From: a virus
Taxonomy: Duplodnaviria > Heunggongvirae > Uroviricota > Caudoviricetes
Direction: 5' to 3' (one strand)
DNA: 44,830 nucleotides
IMG/VR virus record: IMGVR_UViG_2740892487_000005
Location: 1 to 44,830 of that record
The notes under the pieces are model-generated. The model saw nothing but the letters and a program-made list of their open reading frames with translations, searched no databases and was not told the origin of the DNA. Each line of letters opens with the position of its first letter. Position 1 is the stretch's first letter. Below, in pieces: positions 10,801 to 15,392 of this stretch. A program made the translations under genes and the position numbers.

Positions 10801-10885
10801 GAGGCACAAGAAAAGAAAAAGCCCTTGAAGCGGTAACTTCAAAGGCCCTTATCACACTGTGTTACGGCAAGTAACGGGAGTAAGT

Positions 10886-11794
10886 ATGTCAAACACCGCT
10901 GAAATAATCAATTTCCCAAATAAAACCGAACAACCGGGAGGTCGTATGGCCGACCTGTCGAACGGGTATACCAAGGTCGCTAACGAGATCCAACAGCTTA
11001 AGCCTCGCCTGAGACTGTCAGGCCGGGAATGGCAATGTTTTGAGGCGGTGATCTGGCTTACCTACGGCTGGAACAAGAAACAGGACCGCGTGACAAATAC
11101 GGTTATTGCCGAGCTTACGGGCCTGAGCGATACGCATGTATCGGACGCGCTTAAGTCTCTCGCAGAACGCAAAATCATCTTTTCACAGAAGCAGGGCATG
11201 ATGAAAATCGTCGGTGTAAACACTGACCTTTCAGCATGGATTTTAGACAAACCGGAAACGGGAAGAAAATTCCCGAAAACGGGAAAATCATTCCCGAAAT
11301 CAGGAATAACCTTCCCGAAAACGGTAGACACCCAATACAAGAACAAGAACAGTATTAAAAGATCTTCGTCCGAGAATTCTGACGAATCCTCTGACGCACG
11401 TCTGAAGAAATTTTTATCAACTCATCCTGAAGCTGCGGTCTACACACCATCCGGTGCGAAGTGGGGCTCTGCTGAAGACCTCGAGACAGCTAAGTGGATT
11501 TCCTCCAGGGTGAAGCTGATTAACCCAACCTGCAAAGCCCCGGACATGACCTCCTGGTCTAACACTGTTCGCCTGATGCGCCAGATAGACAACCGGTCGC
11601 ACCAGGACATCTGCGCGCTGTATGACTGGGCTAGCAAACACCACTTCTGGCAGACCAACATCCTGAGTCCCGAAAGCCTGCGTAAGCAGTGGGACAAGCT
11701 GACAATGCAGTGTAACGCCGGAGGTGAGCAGCGCGCTGTCAAGCCAGATCTGGACTTCAACAACACTGACTGGGCCTATGGGGTGATCCGATGA
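10886..11794 (+). CDS. O: Replication initiator protein O (iteron-binding)
   Basis: ORF 10859..11794 with start at ATG 10886 after GGGAG. Iterons are embedded in the coding sequence (repeated FPKTGK peptide); followed by P. Confidence 0.85.
   Translation: MSNTAEIINFPNKTEQPGGRMADLSNGYTKVANEIQQLKPRLRLSGREWQCFEAVIWLTYGWNKKQDRVTNTVIAELTGLSDTHVSDALKSLAERKIIFSQKQGMMKIVGVNTDLSAWILDKPETGRKFPKTGKSFPKSGITFPKTVDTQYKNKNSIKRSSSENSDESSDARLKKFLSTHPEAAVYTPSGAKWGSAEDLETAKWISSRVKLINPTCKAPDMTSWSNTVRLMRQIDNRSHQDICALYDWASKHHFWQTNILSPESLRKQWDKLTMQCNAGGEQRAVKPDLDFNNTDWAYGVIR
11252..11323 (+). repeat. Origin iterons (about 4 copies of TCCCGAAAACGG-like repeat) inside O
   Basis: Direct repeats ccggaaacgggaag / ttcccgaaaacgggaa / ttcccgaaatcagg / cttcccgaaaacgg, followed by an AT-rich stretch. 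Confidence 0.7.
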
Positions 11795-12480
11795 AATCTC
11801 TTGCAGAGCAGATGCGTAACCACGACCGCGAGCAGATGAGCCGCATGGCCCATAACCTGCCAGAGCAGTACCAGGAGTGCGCGCCGGTCGAGCAGGTGGC
11901 GCAGGTATTCAACAAGCTGTTCAACGAGCTGCGCGCCGCGTTCCCGGCCAGCATGGCGAACTTCCGCACCCAGGAAGACCTGAACGAATTCCGCCGTCAG
12001 TGGCTGCTGGCGTTTCAGGAGAACGGGATCCACACCATGGCTCAGGTCGATGCCGGCATGCGCATTGCCCGCCGCCAGGAGCGCCCATTCCTGCCGTCGC
12101 CGGGCCAGTTCGTCGCCTGGTGCAAGCAGAGCGGCGGCGCGCTGGGCGTCAACGTTGACCAGGTGATCGCCGAGTACTGGGAATGGCGTAATCGTTCGTT
12201 CGAATTCATCTCCAGCGAGCAATTTCCATGGTCGCAGCCGGTCATGTACCACATTTGCGTAGAATTGCGCCACCGCAGCACCGAGCGCCAGTTAACGCAT
12301 GGTGAACTGGCACGCGAGGCAGGCGATCTGCTGGACATGTGGGAAAGGCGCGTCACCGAGGGTAAGCCAGTGCCGCCGGTACGCCGGGCTATTGCCGCAC
12401 CAGCTGCCGAGCAAGGGCCGACGCCGATCCAGCTGCTGCTGGCCAAGTACAACCGCAACAAGTCGAACGGGATGGTGTGA
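11791..12480 (+). CDS. P: Replication protein P (DnaB helicase loader)
   Basis: 229 aa with strong resemblance to lambda P (…REQM.R.A.NMPEQY…FPAS.AN…RRQW.LAF.ENGI.TM.QV.AGMR.ARRQ.RPFLPSPGQFVAWC…). Confidence 0.9.
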   Translation: MKSLAEQMRNHDREQMSRMAHNLPEQYQECAPVEQVAQVFNKLFNELRAAFPASMANFRTQEDLNEFRRQWLLAFQENGIHTMAQVDAGMRIARRQERPFLPSPGQFVAWCKQSGGALGVNVDQVIAEYWEWRNRSFEFISSEQFPWSQPVMYHICVELRHRSTERQLTHGELAREAGDLLDMWERRVTEGKPVPPVRRAIAAPAAEQGPTPIQLLLAKYNRNKSNGMV

Positions 12481-12481
12481 C

Positions 12482-12826
12482 ATGAACATAACAATTCGTG
12501 GGCAGATTCTTGCAGCCCTGCGTAATAACCCGGGCCTGAATAGTGCTCGCATTGCCACCATGATCGGCATGACCACCAAAAAGATTTCCGGCCCGTTAAG
12601 TACGTTGTTTGCAGACGGCCTGATCGAGTTCGAAGGCAAGCACGGACAGCGGCTTTATCGGCTGACCGATTACGGCATGAAATACGCACCAGAAACAATC
12701 CCGGCTATGCCGAAGGGAAATTCGAAGCTGGTGCAGCGTACAGAGGCAAACGTGATCTGCCAGGAGTGCCGCAACAGCGCGGCGATGAGAAGGGTATTGA
12801 TGGTTTGGGGGAGGGTAGGGGTATGA
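12482..12826 (+). CDS. Hypothetical winged-helix-like protein
   Basis: Start at ATG 12482 overlapping the P stop (in-frame part of ORF 12299..12826). Confidence 0.5.
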   Translation: MNITIRGQILAALRNNPGLNSARIATMIGMTTKKISGPLSTLFADGLIEFEGKHGQRLYRLTDYGMKYAPETIPAMPKGNSKLVQRTEANVICQECRNSAAMRRVLMVWGRVGV

Positions 12827-13212
12827 GCAACATCGACAAACGTGGATTACGGGAAGCAGCGGAGAAGGCGACGAAAGGCCGGTGGGCTGTTGAGTTCGAC
12901 GATGAGATTTACTCCACTGACGGCGTGAACCATGAGCAAATAGCCATGGTATTCAGTGAAAACGAAGCGCGTGATGCTGCATTTATCGCCGCAGCCAACC
13001 CCGCCACCGTGCTGGCGCTGCTGGCATCGCTGGAAGCCGCAGAGAAGCGAATCGCTGAACTGGAAGCGAAGCTCGATAGCGCAGATAAATTGCAAGATAG
13101 CGCATTTCGTCATGGTCTTCAGCATGGCTTCAGTTTTGGTCAAACGGATAATCAGGCTGGATTTGAAGAGTGCTTATCTGCATATGGAGCGCGGGGTAAA
13201 GATAATGGCTAA
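12823..13212 (+). CDS. Ead/Ea22-like family protein
   Basis: Start at ATG 12823 after GGGTAGGGG; N-terminus MSNIDKRGLREAAEKATKGRW… is typical of ead/Ea22-like proteins (from memory). Confidence 0.5.
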   Translation: MSNIDKRGLREAAEKATKGRWAVEFDDEIYSTDGVNHEQIAMVFSENEARDAAFIAAANPATVLALLASLEAAEKRIAELEAKLDSADKLQDSAFRHGLQHGFSFGQTDNQAGFEECLSAYGARGKDNG

Positions 13213-13405
13213 TTCATTACTTGAAACATGCAATGACTGGCAAATTCTTCGCGCAGAAATATTGGCTCGAAATCCAAATATGGCCATGACACTTCAAAAG
13301 CTCGACATCATGATTGAGCATTCCGTTAGGGCGGCAATTGAAATATCGCATCGTGTTGACTGGGATTTTAGTGAAGCAGAGCGTAAAGCTAAGGCGGTGA
13401 ATTAA
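13205..13405 (+). CDS. Hypothetical small protein
   Basis: 66 aa from ATG 13205 (MANSLLETCNDW…). Confidence 0.4.
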   Translation: MANSLLETCNDWQILRAEILARNPNMAMTLQKLDIMIEHSVRAAIEISHRVDWDFSEAERKAKAVN

Positions 13406-14152
13406 TGGAACTTTCACGGGATAAGATTAAAGAAATAATCAATGACGATTGGCTTTTGATGGATGATTGCGAAGGAAATAAAAACTGTGACGTTGTCAAA
13501 GAGATGGCGCGTATAGCGTTGGCATCGCTCGAAGCGGAGCCGGTGGCGTGGTTGCTGTCAGGAGGCGGGGCAAAAAAACAACGTCAGCTTCGATAGTGGC
13601 AATGCTTATGCTGACCCATTGCGTGAGGTGACACCACTCTACGCAGCACCACAGTTACCGCAGCCAGCGGTGTTATCAGTGCCAGATGAAATACCGAAAC
13701 TGAAAGATGGGATGGGCTTTAAGTATGTGAAAGATGGCGTCCGATATTCCTTAAATTATGCCAACGGATGGAATCAATGCCGCGCCGCCATGCTTCAGGC
13801 CGAACCTGTAAGTAATAGTGATGAGTTACCGCTGGACTATCTGCAAGGACACAAAGACGGCCTGGAGTGGGCTGCACAATTGGCAGAAGCCAATCATCCG
13901 CAAACAGGTGACTGGTTGTACGACGACCAAATCGATCTTGCCAGGGCGATTCGCAAAGGTCCGGATATGCCTACTGTTCAGGGTGGCAACTCTCCGGTGA
14001 TTCCAGATGGTTGGGTGATGGTGCCGGTTGAGCTTACTCCGGATATGCGTGCAGCATGGGATTCGGCTCCGTACACAGACGATGATGACAACGACATGCA
14101 GGCTGCATACCGCGCGATGATTGCAGCAGCACCGCAGTGGAAGGTGAAGTGA
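13405..14152 (+). CDS. Hypothetical phage protein; probably one gene split by an indel
   Basis: ORF 13405..13596 ends just after the A7 run at 13572-13578. The downstream ORF (13619..14152) has only a TTG start and no RBS, and its frame is open back through the run; removing one A fuses them. Confidence 0.45.
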
Positions 14153-14265
14153 TGCAGAACCCATTCGACGAGATAATTTAAATCTAGTATTTTTATTTTC
14201 ATTGTTAGTCAAAAAAAGCTGAGCTCCGCCACAAAAAACGTGGCTCAGCTTCTGAGTGCACAGAT

Positions 14266-14766
14266 ATGATATTCGAATATATAAAGCAACATTCAGAGGT
14301 AATCATTTCCGGTTTTTCAGTCGCCGCGGCCATCGCCTCTGCCTGGGCTGCTATTGCAAGCAGGCAGACGGCAGCAAAAGCACTAAAAATCCAAAGCAGA
14401 ATGAGCCTGTATGAGCTTCTAAAATCCACTGCCGAAAAAGCTAATTCTTTCTCAAAGGGCAAGAGAGGTGCAGAGTGGGATTTCTATGACGCTGCCAATA
14501 TAGTTCGATGCCTTAACCTGGCAATGGAGAGCATAAAAGATCATACCGAAAATGATGACAAGCTTGATATAAGAGAGCTAAAACAATTCTTCTTAAGCCA
14601 ATTGAATATGGAGCTCTTTGAAGAGCTCAACTATCAAGTCGGACCGGATGCTTTCTTCCGGGGAGAGGAGCCCAACAGCATGAGCAGCGATATTTACGCG
14701 CAATGGATAAATGCTATTTCATTCTTTAACTTCATGGTTGTAACAGATGAGGATCTTGCTGATTAA
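14266..14766 (+). CDS. Hypothetical membrane-anchored protein (cargo gene in nin region)
   Basis: 166 aa with one N-terminal hydrophobic helix (SGFSVAAAIASAWAAIA); visibly AT-rich island between early genes and ninB. Confidence 0.6.
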   Translation: MIFEYIKQHSEVIISGFSVAAAIASAWAAIASRQTAAKALKIQSRMSLYELLKSTAEKANSFSKGKRGAEWDFYDAANIVRCLNLAMESIKDHTENDDKLDIRELKQFFLSQLNMELFEELNYQVGPDAFFRGEEPNSMSSDIYAQWINAISFFNFMVVTDEDLAD

Positions 14767-14954
14767 ACTCAGCGCAATTGATTTTCCAAAATCAACCAGC
14801 CATAATCATGTCATCGGAGCCTGAACAACTCCGGTGACTTCTGCGCATTTAAGGGGACTTAAATGCGACCACAATCTGAACTCCTCACATTGTCACAGAT
14901 GCAGACATGCACCTGCGATTTTCTGTATTCTGCGTTACCTCTCGGAGGTGGCGT

Positions 14955-15392
14955 ATGAAACAGCCTGTTTTCTACCTCCGCGACGAACGCGTTCGCGATA
15001 ACCTCATCGACTACATCAGGAAGCTGCCCGTTAACGACGCTCTGCCGCTCGTGGTGAAGTTTTCTGAGGCTGACCGCACTCTCGCCCAAAACGACCTCTT
15101 CCACGCTCTCTGTGGCGATACAGCGAAGCAATTGCAATGGGCTGGCAAGTCGCGCGACCTCGCTTCATGGAAAGTCCTGTATGTCTCAGGCCATGCCATT
15201 GCCACCGGTAAGCCTGGTGAAGTGGTGCCGGGTCTGGAAGGGGAGTTCTGCGCCATCCGGGAAAGCACTGCGAAGATGGGCATCCGTCGCATGACCAGTC
15301 TCATCGAATACAGCCAGGCATTTGCTGTGCAAAACGGCGTGCAACTCCGTGAAGTTCGCTACTCAGGTGATTACTTCGGGAGGGTTGCGTAA
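14955..15392 (+). CDS. ninB: Recombination protein NinB
   Basis: Start at ATG 14955 after GGAGGTGG; sequence MKQPVFYLRDERVRDNLIDYIRKLP… resembles lambda NinB. Confidence 0.85.
   Translation: MKQPVFYLRDERVRDNLIDYIRKLPVNDALPLVVKFSEADRTLAQNDLFHALCGDTAKQLQWAGKSRDLASWKVLYVSGHAIATGKPGEVVPGLEGEFCAIRESTAKMGIRRMTSLIEYSQAFAVQNGVQLREVRYSGDYFGRVA

What the first reader, a model, noticed from the sequence alone, without database searches (positions are those of the whole stretch)
14160..14900. AT-rich single-gene insertion in the nin region encoding a membrane-anchored protein, preceded by an oddly oriented hairpin
14266..14766 encodes a 166-aa protein with one N-terminal TM helix and no recognisable family, in a visibly AT-rich island between the early genes and ninB. 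Immediately upstream is a perfect 9-bp inverted repeat (AAGCTGAGC…GCTCAGCTT, 14216-14252) flanked by an A7 run, which would act as a terminator only for leftward transcription. This suggests the cassette was acquired as a unit. Single-TM proteins at this position are candidate exclusion or abortive-infection factors.
Basis: partly seen in the sequence, partly recalled or inferred. Interest (0 to 1): 0.4.

Follow-up and report, generated by a model that had tools for sequence, protein, structure and literature searches.

The report
Orphan membrane-protein cargo cassette in prophage
A 607-base, AT-rich, single-gene cargo cassette sits in a known variable slot of a lambda-like prophage and encodes a rare membrane-anchored protein of unknown function; it is a real but fairly ordinary phage accessory gene, and nothing yet shows that it is a defence factor.

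Summary
The ORF at 14266-14766, its hydrophobic N-terminus, the low-GC island and the 9-bp inverted repeat (14216-14224/14243-14251) next to an A7 run are all present. Phage phi80 and an E. coli prophage carry the same flanks joined by about 36 bp, so window 14171-14777 is a discrete 607-bp cassette. It lies in a slot that holds other cargo elsewhere, such as ybcL-ybcM, a pol III theta homologue or PD-lambda-1.

The gene is real (dN/dS 0.05-0.19). It belongs to PHROG 1779 (function unknown), a rare family with 37 clusters among 1.84 billion proteins and 28 of 5426 E. coli genomes. It matches no Pfam, NCBIfam, PADLOC or PDB entry and no specific fold. The predicted protein has a short N-terminus outside, one transmembrane helix and a cytoplasmic helical bundle of about 120 residues, usually ending in an acidic DxDLxD tail.

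The hairpin is intergenic and, by sequence, a strong leftward terminator (-22 kcal/mol, U7). Among 37 non-redundant relatives, 16 have a rightward terminator there (like the one between lambda ren and ninB), only 7 a leftward one, and covariation is weak.

"Acquired as a unit" is supported. A role in exclusion or abortive infection remains untested.

The parts
14171..14777 (.). 607-bp low-GC cargo cassette (leader with hairpin, one ORF, 11 bp of trailer)
   Evidence: Homology to phi80 runs to 14170 and resumes at about 14778-14791. The empty site in phi80 and E. coli 21AR0133 has about 36 bp instead. GC is 41.8% against 53.8% for the window.
14160..14170 (+). Left junction motif CCCATTCGACG, shared by filled and empty sites and found after several different upstream genes
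   Evidence: Alignments A4 and A5. It is present in phi80, L019, L008, L009 and L013.
14165..14193 (+). Weak candidate promoter TCGACG-17-TATTTT (8 of 12 matches). Both hexamers and the 17-bp spacing are kept in 8 aligned clade-A leaders. Function is not shown.
   Evidence: It falls below the scan threshold.
14211..14217 (+). A7 run, which reads as a U7 tail on the minus strand
   Evidence: Sequence. It is not kept in L008, L030 or L013.
14216..14251 (-). Intergenic hairpin with 9-bp perfect outer arms and a short inner stem. By sequence it is a Rho-independent terminator for leftward transcripts only.
   Evidence: -22.1 kcal/mol with U7 on the minus strand; no U tract on the plus strand. Census in relatives.
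14253..14256 (+). Weak Shine-Dalgarno-like TGAG, 9 nt before the ATG, invariant in clade-A leaders
   Evidence: Alignments A4 and A8.
14266..14766 (+). Gene for a 166-aa protein of PHROG 1779, with an N-terminal transmembrane anchor and a cytoplasmic helical bundle
   Evidence: ORF. (PHROG 1779, E = 2.7e-53). (dN/dS 0.05-0.19). (AlphaFold2; soluble domain pLDDT 87.5, pTM 0.81).
14299..14358 (+). Codons 12-31: predicted single transmembrane helix rich in Ala, Ser and Gly
   Evidence: Kyte-Doolittle maximum of 2.0. Family-wide hydrophobicity and positive-inside charge pattern.
14746..14763 (+). C-terminal acidic tail TDEDLAD; the consensus [DE]xDLxD at the extreme C-terminus is found in most members
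   Evidence: Alignments A1 to A3 and the tail list.
14757..14784 (+). Weak terminator-like site across the stop codon (6-bp stem with 3 GC pairs, then CAATTGATTT). It is not kept in relatives.
   Evidence: The downstream regions of relatives lack it.
14778..14867 (+). Right junction, the start of the conserved block that precedes ylcH-ninB. It contains the promoter-like TTGATT-17-CATAAT (14778-14806) and a 10-bp inverted repeat (14844-14853/14858-14867).
   Evidence: Annotated as putative -35/-10 signals and a 'possible regulator-binding site' in phage 82 X92588 and as IR4 in phi80. It follows the gene directly in 69 of 80 IMG/VR loci.

Best explanation
Window 14171-14777 is an exchangeable single-gene cargo cassette. 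It sits in the variable slot between the accessory genes that follow the replication genes (here a DUF551-like gene) and the conserved ylcH-ninB block of a lambdoid prophage.

Shown:
- It is an insertion relative to collinear relatives, it has deviant base composition, and it always lands at the same right junction.
- Its ORF is a real gene under purifying selection. It belongs to a rare orphan family (PHROG 1779) confined to temperate elements of Enterobacteriaceae.

Inferred from sequence and model:
- The protein is a single-pass inner-membrane protein with a short N-terminus outside.
- Its roughly 120-residue helical bundle, which has no catalytic-looking conserved residues, and its acidic DxDLxD tail lie in the cytoplasm.

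Inferred mechanism:
- It is a non-enzymatic, membrane-tethered binding protein that holds or blocks a cytoplasmic partner at the membrane.
- It is transcribed rightward as part of the delayed-early operon rather than as an autonomous prophage-expressed unit. In most relatives the gene is the first gene after a rightward intrinsic terminator, the same arrangement as the terminator that precedes ninB in lambda.

The hairpin at 14216-14251 is this lineage's version of that inter-module hairpin. Here the T-run lies on the other strand. It can therefore stop leftward but not rightward transcription, and this polarity is a lineage-specific state rather than a conserved function.

The biological role (exclusion, host modulation or other) is not determined.
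For: Cassette and boundaries. GC content.

Slot with alternative cargo:
- DLP12 emrE/ybcK/ybcL/ybcM
- PhiR34_1 and PhiR68_2
- HK639 theta homologue
- Perceval hydrolase
- PhiR26_1 PD-lambda-1 plus Rha plus a family homologue

Fixed right junction: 69 of 80 IMG/VR loci.

Real gene: dN/dS 0.05-0.19 with saturated dS.

Rarity:
- 23 clusters at 90% identity
- 37 representatives among 1.84 billion proteins
- 4 of 185,579 species genomes
- 28 of 5426 E. coli genomes, with the exact cassette in 2
- 2 of 50,697 phage records

Topology.

Terminator context:
- Lambda has a hairpin plus T5 between ren and ninB, ending about 25 nt before the ninB ATG.
- 16 of 37 relatives have a rightward terminator-like hairpin directly before the SD/ATG.

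No strong private promoter or downstream terminator.
Against: - No experiment or homology ties the protein to any activity, so the 'binding protein' reading rests on absence of evidence.
- Transcription was not measured.
- In the window's own clade there is no rightward terminator, so the delayed-early argument is borrowed from clades B and C.
- An invariant TATAAT/TATACT abuts the terminator stem in 14 clade B/C leaders. Conserved TCGACG-17-TATTTT hexamers occur in clade A. Either could be a private promoter, which would favour expression in the lysogen.
- Low GC and a slot shared with PD-lambda-1 fit a defence cargo equally well.
- Distant homologues sit in other contexts: P1-like phage-plasmids upstream of phd-doc, and an integrase-bearing island next to a reverse transcriptase/SLATT pair. 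The operon logic is therefore not universal.
Confidence: 0.55

Rival explanations
1. The cassette is a moron expressed from the repressed prophage, and its membrane protein excludes or aborts superinfecting phages.
For: - It is a presence/absence insertion with deviant GC, two of the moron hallmarks listed in PMC3594210.
- It has a membrane anchor.
- The same slot carries PD-lambda-1 in PhiR26_1, right next to a family homologue.
- Candidate -10 elements are conserved at the left edge of the cassettes.
- The Ala/Ser/Gly-rich transmembrane helix could self-associate (inference).
Against: - No PADLOC, Pfam or PDB match and no informative fold.
- No promoter passes the scan on the plus strand upstream of the gene, and there is no conserved downstream terminator.
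- No conserved -35 element was seen by eye upstream of the TATAAT in clades B and C.
- The soluble domain is predicted to be cytoplasmic.
- The family is very rare for a useful defence gene (28 of 5426 E. coli genomes).
Confidence: 0.3
2. The hairpin is the terminator of a short leftward cis-antisense RNA, like lambda oop or phi80 M3. That RNA overlaps the ribosome-binding site and 5' end of the gene and limits synthesis of a potentially toxic membrane protein.
For: - The minus-strand terminator is strong.
- In Citrobacter locus L009 the stem is stable only on the minus strand (G-U pairs; -14.8 to -17.0 against -4.6 to -8.1 kcal/mol) and keeps a U5 tail.
- The best promoter-like site in the region lies on the minus strand inside the gene: 14524..14497, TTGCCA-16-TATATT, 10 of 12 matches. 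Weaker TATATT sites lie at 14281-14276.
- The same window has a leftward terminator-like site at the cII/O junction, where phi80 annotates the oop-like M3 RNA, so there is local precedent.
Against: - The -35 and -10 of the internal site are fixed by conserved codons (A-M and N-I), so their conservation is uninformative.
- There is no local dip in synonymous variation (permutation p = 0.69).
- There is no Rfam match.
- The T-run is lost in close relatives L030 (93% amino-acid identity) and L008.
- Covariation in the stem is no better than in shuffles.
- The number of promoter-like hits is at chance level.
Confidence: 0.1
3. The hairpin has no function in this phage. It is a decaying remnant of a longer palindrome or terminator carried along with the cassette, and the A7 run is incidental.
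For: - Polarity differs among relatives: 16 rightward, 7 leftward, 1 both, 13 none.
- Within clade A, 5 of 9 stem pairs never vary, only one pair changes on both sides, and 3 sequences break it. No measure exceeds the shuffled controls.
- The window's right arm looks shortened relative to a longer palindrome whose right arm ends in CGGAG; that longer form is kept in L030 (inference).
Against: - A hairpin of some sequence occupies the same few tens of bases before the start codon in most nin-located relatives, including non-homologous stems in L013/L034 and in clades B and C.
- dS in the adjacent gene is saturated, yet the arms persist.
- L008 keeps the stem through a G-C to A-T double change.
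Confidence: 0.25

Closest known systems
PHROG 1779 (phage protein family of unknown function) and RefSeq 'hypothetical protein' WP_126325764.1 / WP_000017329.1
   Same: Full-length profile match at E = 2.7e-53. The gene is 100% identical in E. coli PEC422 and NCTC9040. Size is the same (about 155-180 aa), as is the architecture of an N-terminal anchor plus a helical domain.
   Different: Nothing differs. The window's protein is a member. The family itself has no described function and no Pfam, NCBIfam or PADLOC model.
Morons of lambdoid phages, e.g. the HK97 gene 15 element (as described in PMC3594210)
   Same: A single-gene addition absent from relatives, with GC different from its surroundings. 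The product is a small inner-membrane protein.
   Different: No demonstrable private promoter or downstream terminator. The cassette lies in the early right operon, not the tail operon. No exclusion phenotype is known. Sequence relatedness to gp15/YebO was not tested directly; the only evidence is the absence of any Pfam hit.
The rightward intrinsic terminator between ren and ninB of phage lambda (which I take from memory to be tR2)
   Same: A stable hairpin at the junction between the replication module and the nin genes. In 16 of 37 relatives of this cassette the hairpin has the same rightward form and lies just before the first downstream gene.
   Different: In this window the U-run is on the minus strand (U7) and the plus-strand tail is CUGAGUG. 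It should therefore not stop rightward transcription.
Lambda oop RNA and phi80 M3 RNA (short leftward antisense RNAs in the rightward early operon)
   Same: A leftward terminator embedded in a rightward operon, directly next to the 5' end of a gene. A comparable leftward terminator-like site exists in this window at the cII/O junction.
   Different: No promoter, no transcript evidence, no Rfam match and no synonymous-site constraint.
Other cargo of the same slot: DLP12 emrE-ybcK-ybcL-ybcM, the HK639 pol III theta homologue, and PD-lambda-1 plus Rha in PhiR26_1
   Same: The same insertion slot, immediately upstream of the conserved TTGATT..CATAAT / inverted repeat / ylcH-ninB block.
   Different: The proteins are unrelated. 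Some cargo is on the minus strand or spans several genes.

Membership tests
PHROG 1779 | Significant full-length match to the family profile | tested here: met
   E = 2.7e-53, residues 8-166 against profile positions 8-169 of 169.
Moron (definition in PMC3594210) | Obvious addition between genes that are adjacent in related phages | tested here: met
   phi80 and E. coli 21AR0133 have the same flanks joined by about 36 bp.
Moron (definition in PMC3594210) | GC content different from surrounding genes | tested here: met
   41.8% against 53.8% for the window, in the lowest 1.6% of 607-bp windows.
Moron (definition in PMC3594210) | Own promoter | tested here: inconclusive
   No plus-strand site upstream of the gene passes the scan. 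There is only a weak TCGACG-17-TATTTT (8 of 12 matches) whose hexamers and spacing are conserved in 8 leaders.
Moron (definition in PMC3594210) | Own terminator after the gene | tested here: not met
   Only a 6-bp stem with 3 GC pairs at 14757-14774, which is absent from relatives' downstream regions.
Moron (definition in PMC3594210) | Expressed from the repressed prophage | not testable with these tools
   Needs transcript mapping in a lysogen.
Known anti-phage defence or superinfection-exclusion protein families | Profile or fold match to a described defence or exclusion protein | tested here: not met
Rho-independent terminator, leftward | Stable GC-containing stem immediately followed by a U tract on the transcribed strand | tested here: met
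   Minus strand: -22.1 kcal/mol, z = -3.0, then U7.
Rho-independent terminator, leftward | A leftward transcription unit that ends there | tested here: inconclusive
   Only consensus-level promoter-like sites on the minus strand, at chance frequency. No transcript data are available.
Rho-independent terminator, leftward | Polarity and structure conserved in relatives | tested here: not met
   7 of 37 relatives are leftward against 16 of 37 rightward. Covariation is no better than shuffles.
Rightward inter-module terminator of the kind that lies between lambda ren and ninB | Hairpin plus U tract on the plus strand between the replication and nin modules | tested here: not met
   The plus-strand tail is CUGAGUG. 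The feature is met in many relatives and in lambda itself.
oop-like cis-antisense RNA or type I toxin-antitoxin | Antisense promoter, a constrained overlapping sequence and a known RNA family | tested here: not met
   No Rfam hit. No dip in synonymous variation (p = 0.69). The promoter-like site is fixed by codons.

The most novel reading that the evidence does not exclude
PHROG 1779 could be a new single-gene, membrane-anchored anti-phage effector. In this reading the cytoplasmic helical domain senses or binds a phage component, and the Ala/Ser/Gly-rich transmembrane helix oligomerises to block DNA entry or depolarise the cell. In this lineage its synthesis would be held in check by an oop-like leftward antisense RNA that ends at the 14216-14251 terminator.
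Probability: 0.1. Interest if true: 0.6.

Novelty: new member of a known kind. Interest (0 to 1): 0.25.

Why it matters
The finding documents, with exact junctions, one more cargo type of the variable slot just upstream of ylcH-ninB in lambdoid prophages. That slot also carries known defence (PD-lambda-1) and fitness genes (emrE, ybcL/ybcM).

It also singles out a small, cleanly bounded orphan family (PHROG 1779) with a confident structural model. The family is present in lambdoid prophages, P1-like phage-plasmids and an integrase-bearing island. That makes it a cheap, well-defined candidate for a phage-challenge or toxicity screen.

The comparison of leaders also shows that the terminator hairpin at this module junction changes polarity between lineages. 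Annotators should not read a single genome's hairpin orientation as a function.

None of this overturns current understanding.

Tried and rejected
- **Homology.** Pfam, NCBIfam, PADLOC and PDB sequence searches found nothing, using the single protein and the family alignments. The NCBIfam DnaN hit at E = 0.1 is noise.
- **Antisense or embedded RNA element.** Rfam gave nothing. The apparent conservation of the 5' part of the gene did not survive a permutation test on synonymous codons (p = 0.69). Regional dS is lower in codons 1-40, but this looks like mosaic ancestry.
- **Internal minus-strand promoter 14524..14497.** Its hexamers coincide with the conserved A-M and N-I codons, so their conservation says nothing.
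- **Formal covariation of the outer stem in clade A.** It was not distinguishable from shuffled controls. I therefore dropped the claim that the L008 compensatory change proves selection on the structure.
- **A beta-clamp-binding reading of QLNMELF.** I considered this because of neighbouring theta homologues. I rejected it because the motif lies inside a confidently folded helix and loop and there is no other support.
- **Literature.** No paper mentions the accessions or the PHROG number. The Brenes and Laub 2025 paper on E. coli prophage defence systems is not held in the library.
- **Search of genome contigs.** A search with the wide alignment failed for lack of conserved words. The narrower alignment was used instead.

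Full report
**1. What is in the sequence**

The window is a complete-looking lambdoid prophage. It has integrase, early, replication, nin, Q, lysis and structural genes.

Around the finding the gene order, on the plus strand, is:
- lambda-P-type replication gene, 11791-12480
- Ead/Ea22-like gene, 12766-13212
- a DUF551-like gene split into 13405-13596 and 13619-14152
- the target ORF, 14266-14766
- a 31-codon ylcH-like ORF, 14863-14958
- NinB from 14955, then NinE, YbcO, RusA and a phage-82-type Q

The repeat arms are at 14216-14224 and 14243-14251.

The island is AT-rich. The cassette is 41.8% GC against 53.8% for the window, in the lowest 1.6% of 607-bp windows.

**2. It is a discrete cassette**

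Against phage phi80, homology is about 100% up to window 14170 and resumes at about 14778-14791. phi80 has 36 bp in between. A prophage of E. coli 21AR0133 has the same empty site.

The left junction follows the motif CCCATTCGACG. This motif is also found after three or four different upstream genes in other filled sites.

The right junction is the start of a conserved block. Its parts are:
- the promoter-like TTGATT-17-CATAAT
- a 10-bp inverted repeat
- ylcH

The depositors of phage 82 X92588 annotated the first two as putative -35/-10 signals and a 'possible regulator-binding site'. The phi80 record calls the repeat IR4.

In 69 of 80 IMG/VR loci that encode a relative, this block follows the gene directly.

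The slot holds other cargo elsewhere:
- nothing in phi80
- a pol III theta homologue plus a small ORF in HK639
- emrE, ybcK, ybcL and ybcM in DLP12
- ybcK, ybcL and ybcM in PhiR34_1 and PhiR68_2
- a minus-strand hydrolase in Perceval
- PD-lambda-1, Rha and a 45%-identical family member in PhiR26_1

'Acquired as a unit' is therefore supported.

**3. The gene and its protein**

Among six clade-A cassettes dN/dS is 0.05-0.19, with dS saturated. The ORF is a real gene of old standing.

It matches PHROG 1779 (unknown function) at E = 2.7e-53. It matches nothing in Pfam, NCBIfam, PADLOC or PDB sequences.

The family is small:
- 23 clusters at 90% identity
- 37 representatives at E <= 0.001 among 1.84 billion proteins, nearly all 150-180 aa
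- 4 of 185,579 species genomes: Citrobacter, Enterobacter, Phytobacter and Kluyvera
- 28 of 5426 complete E. coli genomes, with the exact cassette in only two
- 2 of 50,697 phage records
- 83 IMG/VR contigs

More distant members sit in other contexts:
- P1-like phage-plasmids directly upstream of phd-doc
- a lambdoid prophage after a Dam methylase
- an integrase-bearing island next to a theta homologue and a reverse-transcriptase/SLATT pair

Recurrent neighbours are Ead/Ea22, DUF551, pol III theta and DinI homologues.

The N-terminal segment is hydrophobic throughout the family. Basic residues cluster on its C-terminal side, averaging 0.26 against 3.3. By the positive-inside rule this places the soluble domain in the cytoplasm; that is an inference.

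Conserved positions are mostly hydrophobic or structural (W71, the ANIV motif, P127-D128, W147, FF). Most members also end in an acidic [DE]xDLxD tail. Nothing looks catalytic.

**4. The hairpin**

It lies in the 113-bp gap between the upstream stop (14152) and the ATG. The only ORF across it is an 85-codon minus-strand ORF with no PHROG match.

As RNA, the minus strand folds to -22.1 kcal/mol and is followed by U7. The plus strand folds to -17.6 kcal/mol and is followed by CUGAGUG.

The comparative picture is mixed.
- L008 keeps the stem through a G-C to A-T double change but loses the A-run.
- In L009 the stem is stable only on the minus strand and keeps a U5 tail.
- L030 (93% protein identity) has a T-rich loop where the window has an A-rich one, a longer inner stem, and no T-run on either side.
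- L013/L034 and L016 have unrelated hairpin sequences at the same place.
- Clades B and C have TATAAT-CCCCTC...GAGGGG-T5 or ACTCCCTTCA...TGAAGGGAGT-T5-GGAG directly before the ATG. These are ordinary rightward terminators.

A census of 37 non-redundant leaders gives 16 rightward, 7 leftward, 1 both and 13 neither.

A formal pair count on the seven clade-A leaders shows 90.5% of cells paired. Only one pair changes on both sides, and no measure beats the shuffles.

Lambda itself has a rightward hairpin plus T5 between ren and ninB, ending about 25 nt before the ninB ATG. I take this to be tR2, from memory.

The simplest reading is that a hairpin at this module junction is the norm. Its usual form is a rightward terminator, and the window's lineage carries a version whose T-run is on the other strand.

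**5. What transcribes the gene, and is there a leftward RNA?**

- No plus-strand promoter upstream of the gene passes the scan. The number of promoter-like sites in the region is at chance level.
- A weak TCGACG-17-TATTTT at 14165-14193 has both hexamers and its spacing conserved in eight leaders.
- The best promoter-like site of the region is on the minus strand inside the gene, at 14524..14497. Its hexamers coincide with conserved codons.
- There is no dip in synonymous variation (p = 0.69) and no Rfam match.
- A leftward terminator-like site at 10850-10817, at the cII/O junction, shows that oop-type RNAs are plausible in this phage. For the target there is no positive evidence.

**6. Verdict**

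The cassette is real and mobile, and the hairpin is intergenic and leftward-polar by sequence. However, that polarity is not conserved, and the defence or exclusion idea has no support beyond location, composition and a membrane anchor.

My best explanation has confidence 0.55 for the whole and much higher for the structural parts. It is an accessory cargo gene of the replication-nin slot. It encodes a membrane-tethered, cytoplasm-facing, probably non-enzymatic binding protein. It is most likely expressed with the delayed-early operon.

The rivals are:
- a prophage-expressed exclusion or abortive-infection moron (0.3)
- a non-functional relic hairpin (0.25, which concerns the hairpin only)
- an oop-like antisense RNA (0.1)

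The finding is a new member of a known kind, and interest is modest.

Noticed in passing
window 13405-14152 (A-run at 13572-13578): The DUF551-like gene upstream of the cassette is split into 63-aa and 177-aa ORFs by an A7 run. phi80 (PHI80_52, 240 aa) and E. coli PEC422 have A6 there and an intact gene. This could be a pseudogene, a sequencing error, or a site of transcriptional or translational slippage.
   Followed up: partly
window 14778-14958: A conserved block precedes ninB. It contains the palindromic TTGATTTTCCAAAATCAA with the promoter-like TTGATT-17-CATAAT, a perfect 10-bp inverted repeat CGCATTTAAG/CTTAAATGCG, and a 31-codon ylcH-like ORF whose stop overlaps the ninB ATG (ATGA). Matches to the 861-bp query, mostly to this block, occur in 2209 of 5426 E. 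coli genomes. It is annotated as a putative promoter and regulator site in phage 82. Its function appears not to be established.
   Followed up: partly
window 10817-10850 (minus strand): A strong leftward terminator-like hairpin (15 pairs plus a T-run) lies at the cII/replication-gene junction. This is the position where phi80 annotates the oop-like M3 RNA.
   Followed up: no
L040, L052, L053, L054, L056, L061, L064, L065 and L011, about 50 nt before the homologue's ATG (alignment A9): In clades B and C of the family, an invariant TATAAT/TATACT abuts the 5' arm of the terminator stem. In the clade-B leaders where the T-run runs straight into the ATG, the 3' arm (GAGGGG) doubles as the Shine-Dalgarno sequence. 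A promoter firing from that -10 would start inside the stem. Its transcripts would escape both termination and SD sequestration, whereas read-through transcripts would not. No -35 element was evident by eye.
   Followed up: partly
L030:2941-3003 compared with window 14209-14268: In a relative with 93% protein identity, the loop between the same outer arms is T-rich where the window's is A-rich, and the inner stem is longer (CTCCGTCGT/ATGGCGGAG). This is consistent with flipping of the palindrome's centre by recombination between its arms.
   Followed up: no
L023:4875-5339 and L024:3929-4393 (P1-like phage-plasmids): 154-aa relatives with about 35% identity lie immediately upstream of the phd-doc addiction module. 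The surrounding region also holds Ead/Ea22-like and DUF551 genes.
   Followed up: partly
L020:1031-6701 (chromosome CP149994.1): A distant family member (33% identity) overlaps the stop of a pol III theta homologue. It sits between an Ogr/Delta-like gene and an excisionase-integrase pair, next to a reverse-transcriptase plus SLATT gene pair (retron-like defence).
   Followed up: no
L016:4188-4337 (minus strand): In the P0006-type cassettes a 740-bp gap precedes the gene. The gap contains a 49-aa minus-strand ORF with a CxxC...CxC zinc-ribbon pattern. This could be a divergently transcribed partner.
   Followed up: no
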